The translations under genes and the position numbers were made by a program. The notes under the pieces are model-generated. The model saw nothing but the letters and a program-made list of their open reading frames with translations, was not told the DNA's origin and did no database searches. This document shows, one piece after another, positions 4,799 through 14,444 of a stretch of 64,000 bases of DNA. This DNA is from Naegleria gruberi (lineage: Eukaryota), in NCBI GenBank assembly GCA_000004985.1, contig GG738923.1; one strand, given 5' to 3'. Numbering within the stretch: position 1 is the first letter of the stretch; each line of letters opens with the position of its first letter.

Positions 4799-7700
4799 AT
4801 GGCGCAAGTTCTCATCCACACCAGCTGGCCATCAAATAGGCTATTTTTCTTCTGTGTGCTGATGATAACAATTATTTACTTGGCACAAAAAGCATCTCCT
4901 CTCGAATCAAGATTGGAAACTAATTGTCTTGATTGTACTGATAGTGCAATCGGAGGTGGAATTTGGTGTGCTATGGAGAATCGATGTGTTTCATCTGCCA
5001 GTGAATGTTATTCCTCTTTCTATTCAAAATTGAATTCTAATGATGATGGTAATAGATTGTCATTATCCGTGATGATGAATCGGATGAAATCTTTTGTGAA
5101 TATTCATCCTCAAGATGAGAATGAACAAATTTCCGTATTGAATACTAATGAAAATAGAGAAACAGAAGGAATACAAGATTGGAGTAACATGTTTTGGTTT
5201 CTGAAGAATTATACCATGATGAAGGTTGTGAGTAATGATACAGAAGAAGTGGATGAAGAATTTGATGAAGAAAAACATGAACCAATGGAATGGATATCGA
5301 GAATTCCACAACATTGCATGGATGGAGTGATTGACCATCCAAGAAAGTGTCCAAGATTTAATGGTAAGTTATTTAGAGTGAAGAAATGTTAAATATTTGA
5401 ATAGTTTCAATTGCTAGAGAATATTCTCGTTCAACGAGAAATTTAGTGGAACCTATTCCAATTCAACCACAATTGATTTTGGATTCTGTAGATTTATCAA
5501 TTAAGAATTCTATATATGGAAATACTAGTTATCAGGCATTTGTTGGTGCTTTCTTTCCAGATCAACAATTATTTAAAAAGCAAGGATATTTCTTTTCTTA
5601 TGAATTTCATGTTCAAAGAAAAGGAATATTTAAGGTAAAGAAGGGAAAAATTACATTTACTGATCTTTCAATTGCTGCCTCGACTAAGGAGAATCATAGA
5701 TTGGGATTTGGTGTGATGGTGGTGAGTGGATTGAATGGAAGTCTGACAACTGTAAATACCTCAATTCAGTGTGGATTTGTAACATCTTCAAAACCAATCT
5801 ATGTAGAATCTGTTACCATGTACTTTTTATTGAATCCTCATGTATTCGTAGCCCTTCCAATATTCCTTATTGCTATTTCATTAGTTTATATTCAAGTGAC
5901 TTGCTGCTCAAAGAAATATCACCTCAATGATGACATTATAGAGGCAGATACGATAGCTTTGGATGATGACTTACAAGAAGTACCAAAGAAGGAGAGTAGG
6001 ACCTTTTTCACATTGAATTCGAATAGAGATATGGAAGATAAACCATTACTGGGTAAAGCTGTCCAATTTTTCAAAAATTTAGCAATTCACATTGTTGAAT
6101 CAACAATTTCCTTGTTTAGCACCTCTGACAGCGAAATTGTAAGGAAATGTGGAACAGATGTCTATTACTTTTTATGGTTCCAAAAGTATCTCATTCTATT
6201 TGTTACAGTTTGTGGAGCCATCTCAATGATAATACTTTTGCCAATTTATATATTGAGCAAACAGTACGATTATTCATTTAGAGATTTTTCAATGACCACC
6301 ATTGCCTCTATTAACGTAAAGACCAGTATATTGACAATTTTATTTTTCATTATGAATGGTGTTATTCCAGTAATTGGATTTGGTTTATTGTGGAAGATTA
6401 GAAGACTTGCCAGACACATGATTAAGGCAAACAACAATTTTGGAAGCCTATACACTGTGATGATTTCAAATGTGGACAAGACTTTGAAAGATAAGGATAT
6501 TCTCTTACGTGAGTTGAGAGCCATGTTTGGAGATAACTCAATTGTTGATTGTCACATTTGTTTTGATTATTCAAAGATTAATGCACTGGAAAAGGATATT
6601 GAAATCTTGAAAACAAAATTGAGTCTTTTAGACGAGAATAGAAATGTTACTATTAATTACATCAAATCCCTCCATTCAAAACTTGTTAGAAACATGTCTT
6701 TACAGGAGTATTACACGAGTGAAATTGAAAAATCGGAAACCAAACTCTCTGAACTCAAGAAGGAAAATGAAATTTGTGGAACTGGTTTTGCCTTTGCAAC
6801 ATTTTCATCCCTTAAAATGGCTCAACAAGTTTGTGATGAATATGTTACTGACTTTATGGGTTTTATGGTCTCTAAAAAGTATATCCTAAACAAATTTGCA
6901 AGAATCAAGAGTTATCTAACAAATAGTCCAAGTGCTGTACCATCTATTAGAAATAGCTACAACTTTAAACCAGCATGTGAAGCTGTTGATGTAATGTATG
7001 ATAATTTGCAATGTACTACCTCAGAGAGAACTCTTACCAATATTGTTTCCAATGCTCTACTCACATTCATTTTGATTATTGCGTATGCTATTTTAATTTT
7101 CAATAGTTCAATTCCTTGGTACTTTAATCAAAATAAGTCGGAAGTTTATGATTTTGCAGACGGTTCAAAATACTCAACCAATACTATATTCAATTCACTT
7201 CTTGTGTTTTTTGAATTGACTCCTGAAATTATTTCACTCATCAACGAATCTATCAAACCAATTGTTGAAAAACTTGTTGCTTGGGAAAAACCTAAAACTA
7301 GAATGCATGAAAGGAAATCCATTCTCAGAAGAACTACCTACTTTTTCATTATGAGTACTATCATTTTCCCATATGCTTGGACTTATTACAAATCTGTTTG
7401 GAGAATATTTAAATCATTGCCTCCATTCAATAATGAGATTTACTTTTTCAATTTTATTGGAATTGAATTGATTATTACCACTTTGGTATTGGCATGTACT
7501 TCAAAAGGTTTGGATATGATTTTCACCTCAATTTCAATGCTGTATGATTATTGGAGGACTGGAGAATTACACAGACCTAAATTTGATTATGAAGCTGAGT
7601 ATAGCATCAAGATTACATTACTAATAATGTGCCTATTTTATGGAACTTGCATGCCACTAGTTTATATTGCAGTAGTTTTATACTTTATATTCACATATAT

Positions 7701-8292
7701 TGTTGAAAAGTATTTAATCATGTATTGGTATGAAAGATCAATTGAAAGTGATGGAAAGATTCTCAATACTGTTGCAGAAAATATTGGATTTTGCTTTATT
7801 CTTTCACCATTCTACATTATTGTCCTAATGCCAGTTCTACTGAGTAGAAAAATGACCTATTTGTTGGGTATTCCAATAGTAATTCTAATTATTATTGAGC
7901 TTTACTTTTTGATTAGAAAAACAGCTAATAAGGAAAGAGATGCTATCATTATCTCACTCAAGGAACGCTCAGAACAATCACACAAGAAAGAGGACATTGT
8001 TGAAGAATTGGACACCACTCCAACCAATAACACACCAACCAATATTCAAGACGCTTCAGAATATACACGTAAAAATATTGAGGAGGATCATGATTTTATC
8101 AAATTGGAACAAAATGATTGGTTTGAGCATTCACTCCAAGATAAAAGATATCCACCAACCTTTGATAAATTACACGAAATTCTCAACACTGAGGAAACGA
8201 GAATTTTTGAAGAAGATTTGAATTTGGATGTGAACAAATTGTCGAGACAGTATCGCCATCCTTATTTGAGAAAGTTACTGAGGTTTCAGTAG
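4799..8292 (+). CDS. Multi-pass membrane protein of the OSCA/TMEM63/CSC1-like cation channel type (three N-terminal TM helices, a cytosolic domain, then a 7-TM block). Two exons: 4799..5363 and 5492..8292, with a 128-nt intron 5364..5491 (GTAAGT...CTGTAG).
   Basis: Exon 1 (MAQVLIHTSWPSNRLFFFCVLMITIIYLA..., signal/TM plus a Cys-rich segment) ends in phase 1 at the donor GTAAGT. The acceptor at 5490-5491 joins in frame to DLSIKNSIYG.... The downstream 948-aa frame has many TM helices and a TVMISNVDKT...RELRAMFGDNSIVDCHICFDY segment resembling the OSCA cytosolic region. The family call is pattern-based only. Confidence 0.55.
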
Positions 8293-8575
8293 TCAATATT
8301 TAGTCATGATAAGTTGGTTTCTTGATATTTTTCTTTCTCTTTCTCATTCCATTCAATTATTCCAATTTCTTCTAATTTCCAAATAGTACAATTTAGGTTC
8401 TAATAAACATTATTCTAAAGTTTGTGATCTTTCCCTCAGTAACTTTCTCAAATACTGTAACTGTGCCACTCAATCCTTAGCCACATGTTATGGTACTTTA
8501 CCTTCCAGTAGTTCAGTTTGTATTGGTAAAAGAACATGCACAGCTCAATATATTTGCTCATGTTTCCTCCTCAAT
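8293..8575 (+). repeat. Left arm (copy A) of a ~280-bp inverted repeat, lying in the immediate 3' flank of the channel gene.
   Basis: 8293-8575 (agtcaatatttagtcatgataagttggtttcttgatattttt...ccacatgttatggtactttaccttccagtagttcagtttgtattggtaaaagaacatgcacagctcaatatatttgctcatgtttc) is the reverse complement of 13625-13905, with a ~75-nt indel near the inner end. Directly visible in the sequence. Confidence 0.7.
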
Positions 8576-8995
8576 TGCTATCAGATTTATTTGCGCAAAT
8601 ATTAATAAGTAACAATGACGATGGTAGTTGTTCCTCTACTTCATTATTAACAACAACTTGATGCTATTGTGTTTTTAACTTGGGTTATTAGTCCTTCTTC
8701 TTCTCCGTCACTCTCACAATCTTTTTCCTCCATACTATTTATGAATTTAGTAATATCATTAATACGTTGCATAATTGCAAGATGGTTACATTTTGATGTT
8801 GTAGTAGGTGAGGAATCAAAAGAAGGGGTATAATGAGGGAATGATGGTGATGGTGTGCATGACATTTTTTATGTTTCATTACCAACTTTCACGATTAAGG
8901 CCTTTCCATCAAGTACTGGAAGAACGCCTGCCTCCTTCCATGGTACACATTCTAAATGATTAAATTTTGATTCGTGCGAGCAAACATCTTGAGCT

Positions 8996-9425
8996 GTTAA
9001 CATGTTCCTTTACCACTACAAACTGACCTACTGGAAGGTGAAACACCAAAACATGTGCGAATAAGGATTGAGTGACGGTTACAGTACTATCATAAGTTAA
9101 TGAATTTGGATGTGAACAAGTTGTCGAGAGCGTATCGTCATCCTTTGTGAACAGTCAAATCATGATAACCAATAGGAAAATGTTTACCTGATGGAATCAA
9201 CCATGCTGAACAATTGTTCCAGATTGAAAGTTTTTCCAAATCTGTGATGATGATTTTAGTGAAAATATTGAATTTCACTAAAATATTACTAATATAATAA
9301 ATAACAATGATGATGGTTGGTAGTTGTTCCGATGATCATATATCTTCCTCAACCATTCGAGCCATTCGAGCAACAGCCAATCTTCCTCTTCTTCATTATT
9401 AACAACAACTTGATACTATTGTGAG
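8996..9425. repeat. Degenerate composite copy B of the same repeat family, including a pseudo-exon copied from the channel gene 3' end.
   Basis: 8996-9095 (catgttcctttaccactacaaactgacctactggaaggtgaaacaccaaaacatgtgcgaataaggattgagtgacggttacagta) is ~80% similar to 13660-13750, i.e. the orientation of copy C. 9098-9150 (gaatttggatgtgaacaagttgtcgagagcgtatcgtcatcc) copies the last ~17 codons of the channel gene (8216-8270). 9290-9425 is a direct copy of 8610-8680 with indels. Confidence 0.6.
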
Positions 9426-9777
9426 ATCTTGTGCATTTAGCACCTTATCAAATCCAAAAATCATTTTTTAATTAAATTATAAAAAATATCAAAATAACGA
9501 ATCCTTCATCATACTTTGATCATCATAATTATGAAAATAATTAGTACCAACAAGTGTATAGAATGTGAATGTTCAATCTCATCCTGCAACAAAATACATT
9601 GTAAACAACTCGATGGAAGGACACACTTGTTTGTGCTCCAAACAAAAATTTTCGTCCAGTATTAATAGATTGATGGTTGCTGCTGTATAAAAGGGACCAT
9701 AAACTCTCCATCAAAACAATAATCAAAGAAAAGCAATAACAATAATCAGTGTAAAGTTGTAGTACATTCAGTTGAAA

Positions 9778-12700
9778 ATGGGCAAGAGAAAAGCAAGTAG
9801 TAGTATTGGCAATAATGCAAAGACGGTCAAACTTTCTCAAGTAGTACCATCATCATTGCCTGTTCAAAATAGTTCCAATGACAAGGAGATTGTCTACCCT
9901 GCTAGTTTTAATTCTACTTCAGAATTAATGAAAAAGGTCAAGGTACTCTTTACTTCCAATCGTGACGAATGTGAGAAGGAATTATCAATTCTCAAAGAAA
10001 TTAAGGGAATGTTGGATAATGTCAAGGTGTCCTACTTTAAAAATATTACTAAAGGACATCCAATGAAATTAGCTGAAGAAAATCTTAATTCATGCATTGA
10101 CAAGATTAATCAAGTAATTGGTGTTGATGTTACTTTTGTTGGTAGTTCTGGTTTAGGTAAGAGTAGTCTTATCAATATGATTATTGGAGAACCAATTCTT
10201 CCTTGTGGTGATGACATTGGTCACATTACAAGATCAATCTTGGAATTATCTTATGCTAAGAACTATGAAGTAATAGTACAATATTGTAATGAGGAGGAAT
10301 TCAATAAGAGAAGAGCCCTAGCTCCAAAAGAGTTTGCTTCCATTACCTATGAAGAAAAGAAAGATTCTCATGAGACAGTAAATAGTGTCGGGGATATTAG
10401 AGAATTTCTTGATAAACAATTTAGGGAGATGAAAGACCTGGATTTGATCAAAGTTGACAAAATTCTAGGTAAATTACCTGTACAATTGTTACAAGACTTT
10501 AATTTAACTATTCGTGATACTCCAGGATATAAATCTGGTACATTTAGTAGAATTTATCAACATTTCATTGAAAAATCAATTACAAAGACTAATATGATTT
10601 TATTTTTCAGTGAAGGATGTAGGGGAGATGTTTCTACAAGTATATTTAGTGATTTTATTAATCCTATTTTAATGAAAGCTCACAAGAATCCACCATCAGT
10701 TAAAATGCTTATTGGAGGAAGAAATATCAGTGATGAAAAGGTTATGCAATTTAAAAAACTCAAAGAAAAAGTTTCACCAAACAAGATTGATTTTGCTAAA
10801 TTATTATCCATGTATACTGATATGGATCTTGAAGATGTAATTCAAAAGTTGGAACCATTTACTGTAGATTTACCAGTAAATGCTCAATTACCTACACTCC
10901 CTGTTGGTGAAGAGTTTAATATTAAGAACTTGAGAGAAGTTTGCATTTCAATTATTAATAGATTTAATACTCTTATTGTTCCTCATTTGGAATCAAATGA
11001 ATTTGAATCTCAAAAACAAGATTTTCTTGAAAATTTCATGCATGGGCTTGTTGAAGAACAAGGTAGAATCTTACATTCAGAGAGAAAGAATATTATTGAA
11101 ATTACTTGTGCACTTGTACCATTATTAATGTCAATTTGTGTTAATAACTTTTCAGAAAAGCAAACTCAATATTATTTAAGAAAGATTGAAAATGATTTAT
11201 GTGCCTATATGTATGATATTACTCAAAAATTCTCTGATATTGCTATTGAAGAATATAATAATGATTGTGCTATTGAATCTTATGATTTATATATGGATAA
11301 ATTAAGAAAGTCAATTTCCAAAAGACTTAAAGATACTATATCATTTCAAGGATTTAAGAAAATTGCTTTAAATGCCATTTCTGAAGTATCAGAAAATTAT
11401 CCATCAATCACTCTATCCCATAATAGAAAAACCCTTTTACTTTCTAATATTGAACAAGTTTTAACTAGTTGCAAACGAAATATTACAACAGTTTGCAAGC
11501 AATTGTATGAAAATTTGACTAGTAATCCAATTTTTAGAAAAGAGTTCCAAAAGAACACACATTTGAAACAACACACAAATATTAAGAATGAAATCAAGAC
11601 TAATATGATAGTACTGACTAATTTTTTCAATTCTTTATTTGATAAAAATAATAATGCTAAAGTTAATTTAATAGTTGAAACAAAATTCAAACTTACCGAA
11701 TTATTTGAACATTACAAACATGAAAGTCAAGATGATGAATATATCTATTCTATTAATTCAAACTTACCAATTCCATCAAAAGAATCTATTAATCATACAT
11801 TCAAACTCACTCTTCCAACTGAACCACTTAAATATTGGACAAATCATGATGAAAAAGAACCATGGAATCATCTCTCAAACTGTTTAGCTACTAATGACTC
11901 ATTATTGAAAGAGAAAATATTGAGAAATCCAAGTAAGATGAACAGAGAATTAATAGTTGATTTCAATGGTACTAGAATTGACTTTTCAAATCAAAACAAG
12001 ATTCAATTATATAATCTACCAGTGATTCATAATTTGAGTAAATTCCAAACATTATTTACTGGTAATGACGAATTTATTGCACCAATAATGATATTTGCCA
12101 AAGATGAAATCAAACAAAACTTGATTTGCAACACCCTTTCAAAGAATATCAATTCAGATAATTTTTTGGTATTTATATTTTGCCAAGAATCAAATTGGAG
12201 TTCTATTTCTAAACTCGTTAAAGATAATTCATCCTGTTATGTTATTAAGGTTAAGAGTAAGAAATTTAATAAGGGAATATTTGAAACATCAGCTTTAGAA
12301 ATTTCAAAGCATTACAATTTCCCTATTTATCATACAATGACACAATATACAGGAAGAGTTCAAGAATATGTCAGTGATCTCAAATCGTTCAAAACAGCTT
12401 CATTTACATTCATAAGATATTTACGTTTTTCTCAAATAACCATGAAGAAAGAACTATTAGAAATTGATGTAACAAACTTGAAGAAAAATATTGGACAATT
12501 CTTGGCTAGAGTGAGAATATTTATAACTAAACTCACAAGTAATGATTATCAGTGTTTTTTCGATGATACTTTTGAAACTTCTAACTTGATGAACAATAAT
12601 TCAGATTCAGAATCTTTCATGTTGAAATTGAGAGAATTAGATGAAGCAACTGGTACTTCCTTTGCTGAAGACTTTCTCAAAATTAGATTAGCCACAAATA

Positions 12701-13005
12701 AGGCACGTTTAGTGCTTTGGAATGGATCCTCCAATATGGTTAAAGAGTTTAAAGTATTCAATGTCAAGAAAAATAATTATTTCATTAGTTATAGACATGA
12801 TTTAAATTCTATCAATACTTGTTATACTCCATCAATGGTTAATGCTTTGGATGATCAAAAACTTTTTGATTGTGCTTGTTTAGAAGAATATTGTGAACAA
12901 AGTTTGAAGAGTGGATTATTATTTTCAGGAGCTGGTCAATTCATTTGTTATGGATTTAAATTTGAAAAGTTTAATGATGACGATTATGAAAGTGAAAATG
13001 AATAA
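9778..13005 (+). CDS. Large orphan P-loop GTPase (~1075 aa). The N-terminal septin/AIG1/IRG-like TRAFAC G domain is followed by a ~750-aa extension of unknown function.
   Basis: Single uninterrupted ORF. The track start at 9772 is TTG; the first ATG is 9778. G1 is VTFVGSSGLGKSSLINMIIG (cf. septin GESGLGKSTLINSLF, AIG1 GKTGSGKSATGNSILG). G3 is LTIRDTPGY (DTPG). The C-terminal 750 aa have no recognisable domain and are very AT-rich. Confidence 0.7.
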   Translation: MGKRKASSSIGNNAKTVKLSQVVPSSLPVQNSSNDKEIVYPASFNSTSELMKKVKVLFTSNRDECEKELSILKEIKGMLDNVKVSYFKNITKGHPMKLAEENLNSCIDKINQVIGVDVTFVGSSGLGKSSLINMIIGEPILPCGDDIGHITRSILELSYAKNYEVIVQYCNEEEFNKRRALAPKEFASITYEEKKDSHETVNSVGDIREFLDKQFREMKDLDLIKVDKILGKLPVQLLQDFNLTIRDTPGYKSGTFSRIYQHFIEKSITKTNMILFFSEGCRGDVSTSIFSDFINPILMKAHKNPPSVKMLIGGRNISDEKVMQFKKLKEKVSPNKIDFAKLLSMYTDMDLEDVIQKLEPFTVDLPVNAQLPTLPVGEEFNIKNLREVCISIINRFNTLIVPHLESNEFESQKQDFLENFMHGLVEEQGRILHSERKNIIEITCALVPLLMSICVNNFSEKQTQYYLRKIENDLCAYMYDITQKFSDIAIEEYNNDCAIESYDLYMDKLRKSISKRLKDTISFQGFKKIALNAISEVSENYPSITLSHNRKTLLLSNIEQVLTSCKRNITTVCKQLYENLTSNPIFRKEFQKNTHLKQHTNIKNEIKTNMIVLTNFFNSLFDKNNNAKVNLIVETKFKLTELFEHYKHESQDDEYIYSINSNLPIPSKESINHTFKLTLPTEPLKYWTNHDEKEPWNHLSNCLATNDSLLKEKILRNPSKMNRELIVDFNGTRIDFSNQNKIQLYNLPVIHNLSKFQTLFTGNDEFIAPIMIFAKDEIKQNLICNTLSKNINSDNFLVFIFCQESNWSSISKLVKDNSSCYVIKVKSKKFNKGIFETSALEISKHYNFPIYHTMTQYTGRVQEYVSDLKSFKTASFTFIRYLRFSQITMKKELLEIDVTNLKKNIGQFLARVRIFITKLTSNDYQCFFDDTFETSNLMNNNSDSESFMLKLRELDEATGTSFAEDFLKIRLATNKARLVLWNGSSNMVKEFKVFNVKKNNYFISYRHDLNSINTCYTPSMVNALDDQKLFDCACLEEYCEQSLKSGLLFSGAGQFICYGFKFEKFNDDDYESENE

Positions 13006-13624
13006 ATCTCAAGATTAATCACTTGTTAACACATCAAGCTACTGTTCAATCAGGAGGTTCTCTTTTTGCTAATCAAAATATGACTATTGATTTGGATTTC
13101 ATTCAGGTTGGACAGCATTGTATTGGGATTTGCCACAAGTCCGATCACCAGCAAGATTGCAATTACAATCCTCCACTTGGATTCTATTGTACACTAGCAG
13201 ACCTTTAGGGATGGATAAACTTAAAACTAGCCTACCCTTGATAAATTTGTAATATAATAATTGGATAGTTTCTTAATAATATCAGATATTCAAATTACAG
13301 CTGATTGATTCACATCCAAAAAGTGATTTAACGTTTTCACGTTTATGGAAAGAAATTCATCCTCAAAACCAGTCATGGAATTTGGAAAATGAAACTCTTA
13401 CCATGAATAATAGTTTTAAGCTTGTTTAAATTTGGTATTGACAATTTGCTTTTAATGCATTTCCTTTGACAATTGAACTGAGAATGAAGCAACACCTTCT
13501 CCTTATCGCCCACCATTGAAACAGTTGCAGTAAATTTAGAGTAACTATTCACAGTGGAGGGAATAATGAGATTTTAATGCTTGAAACTTGAATGGTTGAG
13601 GTGGATGTTTCACATTTACTACCA

Positions 13625-13905
13625 CTGTATCCTATGAAACATGAGCAAATATATTGAGTTGTGCATGTTCCTTTACCGATACAAACTGAACTACTGGAAG
13701 GTAAAGTACCATAACATGTGGCTAAGGATTGAGTGGCACAGTTACAGTATTTGAGAAAGTTACTGAGGGAAAGATCACAAACTTTAGAATAATATTTATT
13801 AGAACCGAAATTCTTCTATTGGAAATTAGAAGAAATTAGAATAATTGAATGGAATGAGAAAAGAGAAAGAAAAATATCAAAAAACCAACTAGAGCAAATA
13901 CCAAA
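13625..13905 (-). repeat. Right arm (copy C) of the inverted repeat. It overlaps the 3' coding end and 3' UTR of the minus-strand gene at 13836..14444.
   Basis: The reverse complement of 13625-13905 matches 8293-8575. The similarity extends weakly to 13585-13610 (cttgaatggttgaggtggatg), which matches the tandem ccattcgag motif of copy B. Confidence 0.7.
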
Positions 13906-14444
13906 AATAGTAAAGGAAGTAAGGTTGATAATGCTGAACCTGCTAAACATCCAGAACTTATCATGACTAAATATTGTACAAATCTGAGAAAGTAATATTT
14001 GAGAAAATACCACAATCCACCATAATTCTTATAATAAATACTAAACTCATCGTCTAGATCATCTTGCAATTTAGTTTTCTTCTTTGTTTTGGCTTGCTGC
14101 ATGAATTTTCGTCCTAGCTTTAGCAAACTCTTCATTGGTTGATTGTGTTTTTGAACCCTTTCATTTTGCATAATAATTGGTTGTTGTTGTTGGTTTGGTA
14201 CCAAGATTGAATTATTCGAAACTAATTGTTCGTTACTTGATTTTTCAATAGGGAACTCTTGAATGATTTCATTGTTTGTTATTGTATGTAAATTCTCTCG
14301 TTTCGGTTGTTGAACAAAATACTTTCTGTAATATTGAATTGATTTCTTCTTTTTCAAAGGAGAAGAAAGGTTTCCGATAGTAGTTGAATAGTTTCCACTC
14401 GAAGCTATTGTATTAGAAGAAAAAGATTGAGAGGAGGGATTCAT
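13836..14444 (-). CDS. Hypothetical tail-anchored low-complexity protein (~203 aa from the first ATG). The C-terminal TM segment is encoded by repeat-derived sequence, so it may be a chimeric or spurious ORF.
   Basis: The minus-strand ORF is N/Q/S-rich, has a basic stretch (KTKKKTK) and ends in a C-terminal hydrophobic helix LLPLLFLVFALVGFLIFFFLF. The track start at 14495 is TTG; the first ATG codon is 14442..14444. The last ~40 codons lie inside inverted-repeat copy C. Confidence 0.3.
   Translation of the reverse strand: MNPSSQSFSSNTIASSGNYSTTIGNLSSPLKKKKSIQYYRKYFVQQPKRENLHTITNNEIIQEFPIEKSSNEQLVSNNSILVPNQQQQPIIMQNERVQKHNQPMKSLLKLGRKFMQQAKTKKKTKLQDDLDDEFSIYYKNYGGLWYFLKYYFLRFVQYLVMISSGCLAGSALSTLLPLLFLVFALVGFLIFFFLFSHSIQLF

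What the first reader, a model, noticed from the sequence alone, without database searches (positions are those of the whole stretch)
8216..13990. Orphan large GTPase gene bracketed by ~280-bp inverted repeats derived from the neighbouring gene's 3' end
Positions 8293-8575 and 13625-13905 are reverse complements of each other, with a ~75-nt indel. They sit 5.0 kb apart and enclose only one gene, the 1077-aa GTPase (9778..13005). The left arm is the immediate 3' flank of the OSCA/TMEM63-like gene, and the homology extends into that gene's last codons and its stop (8262-8292). The right arm overlaps the 3' coding end of the minus-strand ORF at 13836..14444. This geometry fits one of three things: terminal inverted repeats of a DNA-transposon-like mobile unit carrying the GTPase; an inverted segmental duplication able to drive flip-flop inversion of the 5-kb segment; or a shared 3' UTR element that was recruited twice.
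Basis: seen in the sequence. Interest (0 to 1): 0.65.

Follow-up and report, generated by a model that had tools for sequence, protein, structure and literature searches.

The report
Rearrangement scar around an inserted GTPase gene
The inverted repeats are real, but they are not transposon ends: one arm is a decayed backwards copy of the junction left when a 5.5-kb block carrying a Naegleria-specific GTPase gene was inserted into the last codons of a conserved membrane-channel gene, so this is an ordinary, if tidy, structural scar.

Summary
The window is Naegleria gruberi NEG-M. The inverted repeat is real. The left arm is 8294-8574 and the right arm is 13596-13976. They share 272 matches and 10 mismatches. 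The right arm has two extra segments of 68 and 32 nt.

The arms are built from host gene fragments:
- the last 141 coding nt of the minus-strand gene 13836-14444;
- the 43-nt spacer after it;
- 45 nt reading YLRKLLRERSQTLE* (13748-13792);
- about 110 nt of an EGF-like relic.

The 45-nt piece is the authentic ancestral end of the OSCA/RSN1-like gene. N. lovaniensis and N. fowleri orthologues end ...RQYRHPYLRKILRDRFSQQ*. The window gene now ends ...RQYRHPYLRKLLR-FQ* at 8292.

So the ancestral convergent pair (OSCA gene, 202-aa gene) was split by about 5.5 kb carrying the GTPase. A perfect 21-nt repeat sits on both sides of that block.

The right arm is the original. The left arm is a decaying inverted copy. 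It is missing in a 98-99% identical strain from a metagenome.

I found no target-site duplication, no transposase and no further copies in the 64 kb. The GTPase belongs to a small, fast-evolving, Naegleria-restricted Dynamin_N family.

Verdict: a multi-step local rearrangement scar. Inversion between the arms is structurally possible but untested. Interest is low to moderate.

The parts
5446..8292 (+). Main exon of the OSCA/TMEM63-like (RSN1/PHM7 family) gene, N. gruberi NAEGRDRAFT_82055. Its conserved C-terminal tail is cut short after YLRKLLR and ends with two new codons, FQ*.
   Evidence: Pfam RSN1_TM, PHM7_cyt and RSN1_7TM. Annotated protein P0014 and orthologues P0005 and P0006.
8219..8262 (+). 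Segment Y: native OSCA codons LNLDVNKLSRQYRHP.
   Evidence: Conserved in the N. lovaniensis and N. fowleri orthologues. Aligns at DNA level with L003.
8263..8283 (+). Segment X, left copy: a 21-nt sequence coding YLRKLLR. It is contiguous with Y, as in the orthologues.
   Evidence: Perfect 21-nt match to 13748-13768 (direct) and 8434-8454 (inverted). Orthologue alignment.
8284..8293 (+). 10-nt junction filler, TTTCAGTAGT, which supplies the new codons FQ and the stop.
   Evidence: Read directly from the sequence. It has no counterpart in the orthologues.
8294..8574 (+). Left arm: a decayed inverted copy of the right junction. It contains the 3' end of the 202-aa gene with a frameshifting 68-nt deletion, the spacer, the inverted OSCA tail (X' at 8434-8454) and the EGF-like relic.
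   Evidence: Seven left-arm-specific substitutions plus indels, at sites where the right arm and the sister strain agree. Absent in the sister strain.
8598..8671 (+). Direct-repeat patch R1, a partial copy of 9291-9423 (83-95% identical, with a ~60-nt indel).
8978..9100 (+). Third, older copy (W3) of the EGF-relic/X junction, in the same orientation as the right arm and 79-83% identical to it.
   Evidence: tblastn with the EGF peptide matches 9086-9000.
9101..9145 (+). Segment Y3: a relic copy of Y, 91% identical, reading MNLDVNKLSRAYRHPL*. In the sister strain the OSCA gene is fused directly to it.
9778..13005 (+). Large GTPase gene of 1075 aa with a Dynamin_N domain at residues 118-288. It belongs to a Naegleria-restricted family.
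13552..13815 (-). EGF-like relic ORF on the minus strand (...CNCATQSLATCYGTLPSSSSVCIGKGTCTTQYICSCFIGYSGSKCE...). It runs across the inner boundary of the right arm.
   Evidence: Translation. Pfam EGF_2, E=2.4e-4, 21.8 bits against a 22.1 cut-off.
13596..13976 (-). Right arm, the source copy. It is contiguous on one side with the intact 202-aa gene and on the other with the rest of the EGF-like relic.
13748..13792 (+). Stranded ancestral end of the OSCA gene, YLRKLLRERSQTLE*: the X right copy plus the original last codons and stop.
   Evidence: Translation. Aligns with the N. lovaniensis gene end, YLRKILRDRFSQQ*, at DNA and protein level.
13836..14444 (-). Gene for a 202-aa predicted membrane protein (P0002). 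It was the ancestral convergent neighbour of the OSCA gene. Its last 141 coding nt lie in the right arm.
   Evidence: 100% match to an annotated N. gruberi protein. The 98% identical P0003 is in the sister strain.

Best explanation
The repeat is an inverted segmental duplication inside a multi-step rearrangement scar. It is not a mobile-element terminus.

Ancestral state: the OSCA-like gene (+) and the 202-aa membrane-protein gene (-) were convergent neighbours, with 43 nt between their stop codons.

Insertion: a block of about 5.5 kb came to lie inside the last codons of the OSCA gene. It carries a lineage-specific Dynamin_N GTPase gene and, convergent to it, the 3' part of an EGF-like gene. 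The 21 nt coding YLRKLLR (segment X) now sit on both sides of the block. The gene's original last seven codons and stop are stranded 5.5 kb away, next to the old neighbour.

Inverted copy: later, about 350 nt spanning that right-hand junction was copied in reverse orientation to the position just after the truncated OSCA gene. The copied stretch holds the EGF relic, the stranded OSCA tail, the spacer and the 3' end of the 202-aa gene. This made the left arm, which has since decayed. Older direct copies (8978-9145 and 8598-8671) show there were earlier rounds of local duplication.

Strain difference: in a sister strain, 882 bp including the left arm are absent. The most likely cause is recombination between the 45-nt direct repeats Y and Y3.

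Shown:
- the identity of each piece;
- the split of the conserved tail;
- that the right arm is the source and the left arm the copy;
- the polymorphism between strains.

Inferred:
- the order of events;
- the mechanism, which is probably break repair or replication template switching between nearby sequences, with some later gene conversion between the arms.
For: Organism and genes.

Split tail:
- The orthologues end ...RQYRHPYLRKILRDRFSQQ*.
- The window gene ends ...RQYRHPYLRKLLR|FQ* at 8292.
- 13748-13792 reads YLRKLLRERSQTLE*.
- N. lovaniensis DNA aligns with the composite 8146-8283 + 13769-13780 better than with the current left sequence, 86 against 77. It also aligns directly with the right arm through AGGGAAAGA---TCACAA.

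The right arm is native on both sides:
- It continues into the intact gene 13836-14444.
- On the minus strand it continues into a canonical EGF end, CSCFIGYSGSKCE.
- The left arm instead breaks into unrelated sequence at both ends.

The left arm is the decaying copy:
- It carries a 68-nt frameshifting deletion in the copied coding part, with AGTT microhomology.
- It has 7 private substitutions and 2 one-nt indels, against 2 private substitutions in the right arm, using the sister strain as outgroup.

Not a transposon:
- No target-site duplication.
- No transposase ORF.
- No further copy in the 64 kb.
- No other annotated N. gruberi protein matched the query built from the 202-aa protein (truncated at the putative splice donor) plus the EGF relic.

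Polymorphism:
- The sister-strain contig L002 joins 8118-8218 directly to 9101-9240.
- Its contig L001 keeps the right arm.

Y3 looks like a relic that escaped constraint. It has a two-nt change at the conserved Gln codon, CAG to GCG. This favours deletion in the sister strain over insertion in NEG-M.
Against: - The exact history cannot be reconstructed. The perfect 21-nt duplication of X flanking the whole insertion has no assigned mechanism.
- The left arm sits within 10 nt of the left insertion junction, which is an uncomfortable coincidence for two independent events.
- The arm variants form a mosaic. The left arm and the sister strain's right arm share the same 32-nt deletion. Yet the two NEG-M arms share a derived T at one site where the sister strain and the third copy both have G. 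Explaining this needs gene conversion or allelic recombination.
- The divergences are uneven: 4% between the arms, 9% for Y/Y3 and 17-21% for the third copy.
- Only 64 kb of the genome could be searched. A 221-aa gene model identical to the OSCA C-terminus, including the new FQ* end, lies on another scaffold. So at least the left junction exists twice in the assembly, and its context is unknown.
- Synteny with N. lovaniensis is lost apart from the OSCA gene. The ancestral adjacency therefore rests on the stranded tail alone.
Confidence: 0.75

Rival explanations
1. The arms are terminal inverted repeats of a DNA-transposon-like mobile unit (8294-13976) that carries the GTPase as cargo.
For: The geometry fits: arms of about 280-380 nt bracket a single gene. 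In N. lovaniensis a GTPase paralogue lies 3 kb from a gene with a piggyBac-type DDE_Tnp_1_7 domain. That may well be coincidence.
Against: - No target-site duplication at the outer ends.
- The arms consist of host coding and intergenic sequence that is native at the right-hand site.
- No transposase is present in or near the unit.
- No other copy in the window.
- The sister strain keeps the right arm but lacks an 882-bp piece bounded by direct repeats, not the unit.
- Helitron-type ends (5'-TC...CTRR-3' inserted at an AT) are absent at the insertion boundaries.
Confidence: 0.03
2. The arms act as substrates for homologous recombination that flips the ~5-kb GTPase segment back and forth, making it an invertible cassette.
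For: The arms are inverted, 5.0 kb apart and share a perfect 115-nt block. The mosaic of shared variants suggests the arms have exchanged sequence.
Against: - Only one orientation is available to look at.
- The present orientation is the one in which the right arm is still contiguous with the rest of the EGF relic, so no crossover inversion is fixed here.
- An inversion would change nothing obvious except the direction of the GTPase gene.
- The one structural variant actually seen in another strain is a deletion between direct repeats.
Confidence: 0.1
3. The left arm is retained because it gives the truncated OSCA gene a working 3' end. It supplies a stop, a 3' UTR and a poly(A) signal borrowed, in the sense orientation, from the 202-aa gene. 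This does not exclude the best explanation.
For: On the + strand the left arm is the same sequence as the transcript end of the minus-strand gene. It includes AATAAA at about 8402-8407, which corresponds to AATAAA about 45 nt after that gene's stop. The OSCA gene lost its own stop and downstream sequence to the insertion.
Against: - The sister strain does without it. There the OSCA gene ends ...RAYRHPL* in other sequence.
- The left arm accumulates substitutions and indels faster than the right arm.
- No transcript data are available.
- Poly(A) signal use in Naegleria is assumed here, not tested.
Confidence: 0.2
4. The inverted duplication arose as the by-product of an inversion made by staggered breaks. 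In this model the arms are the filled-in breakpoint regions, as described for Drosophila inversions.
For: Such events leave inverted duplications at both ends of an inverted segment, which is the same geometry as here.
Against: Undoing such an inversion would separate the right arm from 13605-13635. Together they form a canonical EGF end, CSCFIGYSGSKCE, and that cannot have been created by chance. Undoing it would also fail to remove the second copy of X.
Confidence: 0.03
5. The left arm is an assembly artefact of the NEG-M draft.
For: The left arm is seen only in this assembly. A second gene model containing the same left junction lies on another scaffold, so haplotype redundancy or mis-joins exist.
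Against: - The arms differ by 10 substitutions and 4 indels, which is not what a collapsed or duplicated read set would give.
- The flanking relics (R1, W3, Y3) form a coherent diverged structure.
- The sister-strain contig confirms Y3 and its downstream sequence independently.
Confidence: 0.03

Closest known systems
Inverted segmental duplications and complex rearrangements made by break repair or replication template switching (FoSTeS/MMBIR-type events, DUP-TRP/INV-DUP-like structures)
   Same: - Short patches copied from sequences a few kb away, in both orientations.
- Junctions with a few nt of filler or microhomology (the 10-nt filler and the AGTT at the 68-nt deletion).
- Gene fragments duplicated as pseudogene pieces.
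- Secondary deletion between the resulting direct repeats.
   Different: The patches differ in age (4%, 9% and 17-21% divergence), so this is not one event. No junction carries a diagnostic microhomology that I could show. The comparison rests on my own knowledge of these models, not on a test.
Terminal-inverted-repeat DNA transposons with captured genes (Pack-MULE or transduplication type)
   Same: Inverted repeats of a few hundred nt bracket host-derived coding sequence.
   Different: No target-site duplication, no element-specific termini, no transposase and no other copies in the window. The right arm is native sequence at its own site.
Invertible segments bounded by inverted repeats (for example the yeast 2-micron flip region, or plastid and palindrome-mediated inversions)
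   Same: Inverted arms with a perfect block of over 100 nt, a few kb apart.
   Different: No recombinase, no evidence for a second orientation and no functional switch that the inversion would operate.
Dynamin-superfamily large GTPases (the gene between the arms)
   Same: N-terminal Dynamin_N GTPase domain. Weak P-loop-region similarity to mitofusin and mitochondrial dynamin chains.
   Different: The remaining ~800 residues match nothing outside Naegleria. Only 7 proteins among 1.84 billion representatives reach E<=1e-3, all at or below 34% identity apart from the protein itself.

Membership tests
TIR DNA transposon | Target-site duplication directly outside the two termini | tested here: not met
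   The outer flanks are ...GAGGTTTCAGTAGT| and |TACAAATCTGAGAA. They share no direct repeat.
TIR DNA transposon | A transposase gene in the element, or related autonomous copies | tested here: not met
   Between the arms there is only the GTPase ORF, plus short ORFs that show no obvious transposase features by inspection. Pfam finds no transposase among the neighbouring ORFs that were scanned.
TIR DNA transposon | Multiple dispersed copies with the same termini | tested here: inconclusive
   There are no other copies in the 64-kb window, and two JGI metagenome scans returned nothing (the second pattern was mistyped to the third-copy variant). The rest of the N. gruberi genome could not be searched.
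TIR DNA transposon | Termini are element sequence, not native host sequence at the site | tested here: not met
   The right arm is contiguous with the intact 202-aa gene. It also contains the ancestral OSCA tail, which aligns with the N. lovaniensis orthologue.
Inverted segmental duplication (pseudogene-fragment copy) | One copy is native in its context; the other is truncated at both ends and embedded in unrelated sequence | tested here: met
   The right arm continues into gene and EGF relic. The left arm ends abruptly at 8294 and at about 8574.
Inverted segmental duplication (pseudogene-fragment copy) | The copy shows disabling changes and faster divergence | tested here: met
   A 68-nt frameshifting deletion and 7 private substitutions in the left arm against 2 in the right arm, polarised with the sister strain.
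Inverted segmental duplication (pseudogene-fragment copy) | Presence/absence polymorphism among close relatives | tested here: met
   The sister-strain contig L002 lacks 882 bp including the left arm. L001 keeps the right arm.
Recombination-driven invertible segment | Inverted arms long and similar enough for homologous recombination | tested here: met
   Arms of 281 and 381 nt, 272 matches, and a 115-nt perfect block.
Recombination-driven invertible segment | Both orientations present in a population or in reads | not testable with these tools
   No reads and no second assembly covering the interior are available.
Helitron | Insertion at a host AT with 5'-TC and 3'-CTRR ends and a 3' hairpin | tested here: not met
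   The insertion boundaries read ...CATCCTT|TGTGAAC (Y3 side) or ...CTGAGG|TTTCAG, and ...TTACAGTA|TTTGAG. Neither has TC/CTRR ends.
Dynamin superfamily (GTPase gene) | Dynamin-type N-terminal GTPase domain | tested here: met
   Pfam Dynamin_N, E=1.8e-13, 51.3 bits against a cut-off of 27, residues 118-288.
Dynamin superfamily (GTPase gene) | Middle/stalk and GED-type helical domains | not tested
   No Pfam hit beyond the GTPase domain. No structure was predicted.
OSCA/TMEM63 (RSN1/PHM7) family (left neighbour) | RSN1_TM, PHM7_cyt and RSN1_7TM domains in order | tested here: met
   All three are above their cut-offs. The orthologues carry the same domains.

The most novel reading that the evidence does not exclude
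The ~5.5-kb GTPase block could be a non-canonical mobile or recurrently rearranging cassette of Heterolobosea. On this reading it inserted with a perfect 21-bp duplication of its target inside the last codons of a conserved gene, it is still structurally unstable, and its inverted arms permit orientation switching. It is bounded by inverted repeats, by direct repeats and by a second copy of the left junction on another scaffold. The evidence does not exclude this, because only 64 kb of the genome and two short contigs of one other strain could be examined.
Probability: 0.06. Interest if true: 0.6.

Novelty: new member of a known kind. Interest (0 to 1): 0.25.

Why it matters
This is a clean, datable example of how a lineage-specific gene came to sit between two conserved neighbours in a compact protist genome.

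- The conserved C-terminal tail of the OSCA-like protein is literally split. Seven codons and the stop lie 5.5 kb from the rest of the gene.
- That fixes the insertion point to the nucleotide.
- It also shows that the host gene survived with a new two-codon end.

The locus is still variable between near-identical strains. It could therefore serve as a marker for strain history and for haplotype structure in the N. gruberi complex.

It does not reveal a new kind of element or mechanism. For annotation, it warns that 13552-13815 and 8294-9145 are gene relics and not regulatory or mobile sequences.

Tried and rejected
- Exact look-ups of the GTPase and of the 221-aa duplicate gene model in the contig index found nothing. 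The N. gruberi genome is not in that index. The rest of the genome could therefore not be searched for more copies.
- Two JGI metagenome scans gave 0 hits. That scan was wasted.
- Synteny with N. lovaniensis: only the OSCA gene is shared with the first 32 kb of the window. The ancestral neighbour could not be confirmed that way.
- I suspected that 9146-9560 is a diverged copy of the 202-aa gene region. The local alignment score of 21 was within the range of shuffles (maximum 25, z=3.3). Rejected.
- I checked whether the minus-strand gene next to the N. lovaniensis GTPase paralogue is EGF-like, which would support a conserved GTPase/EGF gene pair. It is not; its first exon translation is not visibly Cys-rich or EGF-like.
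- The ENA contig carrying GTPase relative P0008 comes from a different metagenome. It shares only the GTPase domain with the window.
- The staggered-break inversion model and the large tandem-duplication model were considered and rejected. The first conflicts with the EGF continuity. The second conflicts with the absence of a second GTPase or W copy in the window.
- Literature searches for Naegleria repeats or transposons, for Naegleria dynamins and for the ENA project number gave nothing usable.
- I tried to build a full step-by-step history: target duplication plus insertion, then unequal crossover between the X copies, then decay of the first copy, then inverted copying, then deletion in the sister strain. 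This order explains the arrangement R1...W3-X~-Y3...R2...W-X, but it has too many free steps to be claimed.

Full report
**Origin of the window.** The 1075-aa ORF at 9778-13005 is 100% identical to a predicted protein of Naegleria gruberi on a 326,815-bp scaffold. The other two genes at the site are also annotated N. gruberi proteins:
- the OSCA-like protein P0014, NAEGRDRAFT_82055, 1150 aa;
- the 202-aa protein P0002.

The window has about 33% G+C and carries ordinary host genes all around: kinases, an SNF2 helicase, a TPR protein and an aminotransferase.

**The observation.** The inverted repeat is real.
- BLAST of the region against the window gives 8312-8566 vs 13890-13636 at 95.7% over 256 nt (E about 1e-115).
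- 8294-8315 vs 13976-13955 match at 100%.
- A global alignment sets the arms at 8294-8574 and 13596-13976.
- It shows 272 matches, 10 mismatches, two 1-nt indels and two right-specific segments of 68 nt and 32 nt.
- The longest perfect block is 115 nt.

The main claim holds: arms of about 280 nt, about 5 kb apart, around one intact gene. No other copy of the arm exists in the 64 kb.

Two things were missed:
- a third, older partial copy at 8978-9103, 79-83% identical and in the orientation of the right arm;
- directly after it, a 91% copy (9101-9145) of OSCA codons 8219-8263.

**What the arms are made of.** Read on the minus strand, the right arm runs through four pieces.
- The last 141 coding nt of the 202-aa gene, a hydrophobic C-terminal segment with its stop at 13836-13838.
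- 43 nt of spacer.
- The reverse of a 45-nt stretch.
- About 110 nt that continue beyond the arm into ...VCIGKGTCTTQYICSCFIGYSGSKCE. This is a canonical EGF-type cysteine pattern. Pfam EGF_2 scores E=2.4e-4 and 21.8 bits, just under the 22.1 cut-off.

Read on the plus strand, the 45-nt stretch (13748-13792) is YLRKLLRERSQTLE*.

**The key comparison.**
- The OSCA-like proteins of N. lovaniensis and N. fowleri end ...LARQYRHPYLRKILRDRFSQQ* and ...RQYRHPYLRKILGDRISQQ*.
- The window gene ends ...LSRQYRHPYLRKLLR, then two unrelated codons and a stop (FQ*, 8284-8292).
- The missing end is exactly what the right arm holds.
- At DNA level, the N. lovaniensis gene end aligns with the composite 8146-8283 + 13769-13780 (score 86), and less well with the present left sequence (77).
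- It also aligns directly with the right arm through TATTTGAGAAAG...AGGGAAAGA---TCACAA.

So two contiguities are both ancestral: 8219-8283 (Y-X) on the left, and 13748-13792 followed by the 202-aa gene on the right. Everything between them, 8284-13747, is inserted relative to the ancestral gene. The 21-nt X (TATTTGAGAAAGTTACTGAGG) is present, perfectly, on both sides.

The ancestral state was a convergent gene pair with 43 nt between the stops. Synteny with N. lovaniensis is otherwise lost, so this adjacency rests on the stranded tail.

**Which arm is the source.** The right arm is native on both sides. It runs on into the intact 202-aa gene, and it runs on into the rest of the EGF-like relic.

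The left arm breaks into unrelated sequence at both ends.
- Its copy of the coding part carries a 68-nt frameshifting deletion bounded by a 4-nt AGTT repeat.
- With the sister strain as outgroup, the left arm has 7 private substitutions and 2 one-nt indels. The right arm has 2 private substitutions.

The junction between the EGF relic and X is not a native contiguity, yet it is present in both arms. It therefore formed once, at the right, and was copied afterwards.

**A sister strain.** The ENA metagenome ERZ929261 holds two contigs from a Naegleria that is 98-99% identical.
- L001 (963 bp) covers the 202-aa gene and the right arm.
- L002 (3392 bp) carries the OSCA gene. Its 3' end runs from the equivalent of 8218 directly into 9101-9240, and the protein ends ...SRAYRHPL*.

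That strain therefore lacks 882 bp, including the whole left arm. The switch point lies in the 19 nt shared by Y and Y3.

Y3 carries a two-nt change at the conserved Gln codon (CAG to GCG), as expected for a relic that had escaped constraint. I therefore read the sister allele as a deletion between the direct repeats, not as the primitive state. This is an inference.

No GTPase fragment from that metagenome appeared in the protein search. That may only reflect low coverage.

**Signs of sequence exchange.**
- The left arm and the sister strain's right arm share the same 32-nt deletion, with an identical junction (CATGTTTCCTCCTCAA).
- The NEG-M right arm keeps those 32 nt. They must be ancestral, because they complete the EGF motif and because the third copy has the same cysteine spacing.
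- Conversely, the two NEG-M arms share a derived T at one site where the sister strain and the third copy both have G.
- The 115-nt perfect block contrasts with about 8 differences in the neighbouring 97 nt.

Together these suggest gene conversion or allelic recombination. The sites are few.

**Not a transposon.**
- The outer flanks share no direct repeat.
- The interior holds the GTPase gene, gene relics and short ORFs that show no obvious transposase features by inspection.
- No transposase was found among the neighbouring ORFs that were scanned.
- Helitron-type ends are absent.
- A staggered-break inversion origin is contradicted, because undoing the inversion would split the EGF motif that spans the inner edge of the right arm.
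- A large tandem duplication is contradicted by the absence of a second GTPase or EGF-relic copy in the window.

**The gene between the arms.**
- The GTPase has a Dynamin_N domain (E=1.8e-13) and nothing else recognisable.
- An exhaustive search of 1.84 billion representative proteins found 7 proteins at E<=1e-3. One is the protein itself and the other six are distant relatives.
- The four named hits are all from Naegleria: the query protein itself, N. lovaniensis C9374_003664, and N. gruberi NAEGRDRAFT_58724 and NAEGRDRAFT_80834. The other three come from metagenomes.
- The paralogue NAEGRDRAFT_58724 aligns at both the N- and C-terminal thirds at 23-26% identity.

The gene is therefore a member of a small, fast-evolving, genus-restricted family. 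It is not a true orphan, and there is no sign of foreign origin. Solved structures give only marginal P-loop matches.

**Likely mechanism (inferred).** There were several rounds of local duplication and repair.
1. The GTPase block, with the 3' part of a convergent EGF-like gene, was joined into the OSCA tail, with duplication of X.
2. Older direct copies (W3 with Y3, and R1 against 9291-9423) fit an unequal exchange or tandem duplication whose first copy has largely decayed.
3. Then came the inverted copy of the right junction.
4. Last came the 882-bp deletion in the sister lineage.

Short patches copied from nearby sequence in both orientations, a 10-nt filler and small microhomologies are what break repair or replication template switching produce. 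That comparison comes from my own knowledge of those models and is not a test.

Two points remain unexplained: the perfect 21-nt duplication, and the placement of the left arm only 10 nt from the left insertion junction.

**Possible consequences (inferred).**
- On the + strand the left arm gives the OSCA gene the same downstream sequence as the 202-aa gene, including AATAAA at about 8402. It may serve as a borrowed 3' end. The sister strain manages without it.
- X and its inverted copy 150 nt downstream form a perfect 21-bp stem in the predicted OSCA 3' RNA (z=-4.1).
- The arms could support inversion of the 5-kb segment. No data bear on this.

**Verdict.** The feature is real and its anatomy is well explained. 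It is an inverted segmental duplication within a rearrangement scar, polymorphic between strains. It is ordinary in kind, and instructive mainly because the split conserved tail pins the insertion to the nucleotide.

Noticed in passing
window 7630-8292 (protein P0013): A separate N. gruberi gene model, NAEGRDRAFT_64869 (221 aa), sits on a different scaffold of 613,270 bp. It is 100% identical to the C-terminal 221 residues of the OSCA-like protein, including the new FQ* end. So the left junction exists at least twice in the assembly, either as a haplotig or as a recent segmental duplication. Its DNA could not be retrieved.
   Followed up: partly
window 13816-13901 (minus strand): An 86-nt interval with GT...AG ends would, if spliced, join the 202-aa gene in frame after ...LLPLLFL to the EGF-like ORF 13815-13552. 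That would give a membrane-anchor plus EGF protein. The annotated model is unspliced, and the sister strain has a net 33-nt loss that removes the last EGF cysteine.
   Followed up: partly
window 8263-8283 and 8434-8454: A perfect 21-bp inverted repeat, 150 nt apart, encloses the OSCA stop codon. It is predicted to form the dominant stem of the 3' RNA (MFE -46.5 kcal/mol, z=-4.1). It could be a substrate for small-RNA processing; this is untested.
   Followed up: partly
window 4799-5392 and 5446-8292: The Cys-rich ORF 4799-5392 (weak PSI/plexin-repeat hit) is the upstream exon of the OSCA-like gene. The annotated 1150-aa protein runs ...STRNL|VEPIPIQ across an intron of about 50 nt. An extracellular Cys-rich N-terminal extension on an OSCA/TMEM63-type channel is unusual. 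It is shared with N. lovaniensis.
   Followed up: no
L005:12007-15042 (N. lovaniensis): The N. lovaniensis GTPase paralogue (L005:6001-9042) lies 3 kb from a 1338-aa gene with a piggyBac-type DDE_Tnp_1_7 domain. This is probably coincidence. The window has no counterpart.
   Followed up: no
window 11001-13000: The GTPase gene body has the lowest G+C of the window, 26-28% against about 33%. Its relatives are all from Naegleria or metagenomes, so this is probably compositional drift of a fast-evolving gene and not foreign origin.
   Followed up: partly
window 13487-13582: An imperfect 96-nt palindromic self-match (67%) lies just inside the right arm, between two EGF-like relic stretches. A second degenerate CNC...TC motif lies at about 13110-13200 on the minus strand.
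   Followed up: no
L002:3240-3250 vs window 8205-8218: The sister strain has a 3-nt deletion (GAAGAAGAT to GAAGAT, losing one Glu) right next to the inferred recombination point in the OSCA tail.
   Followed up: no
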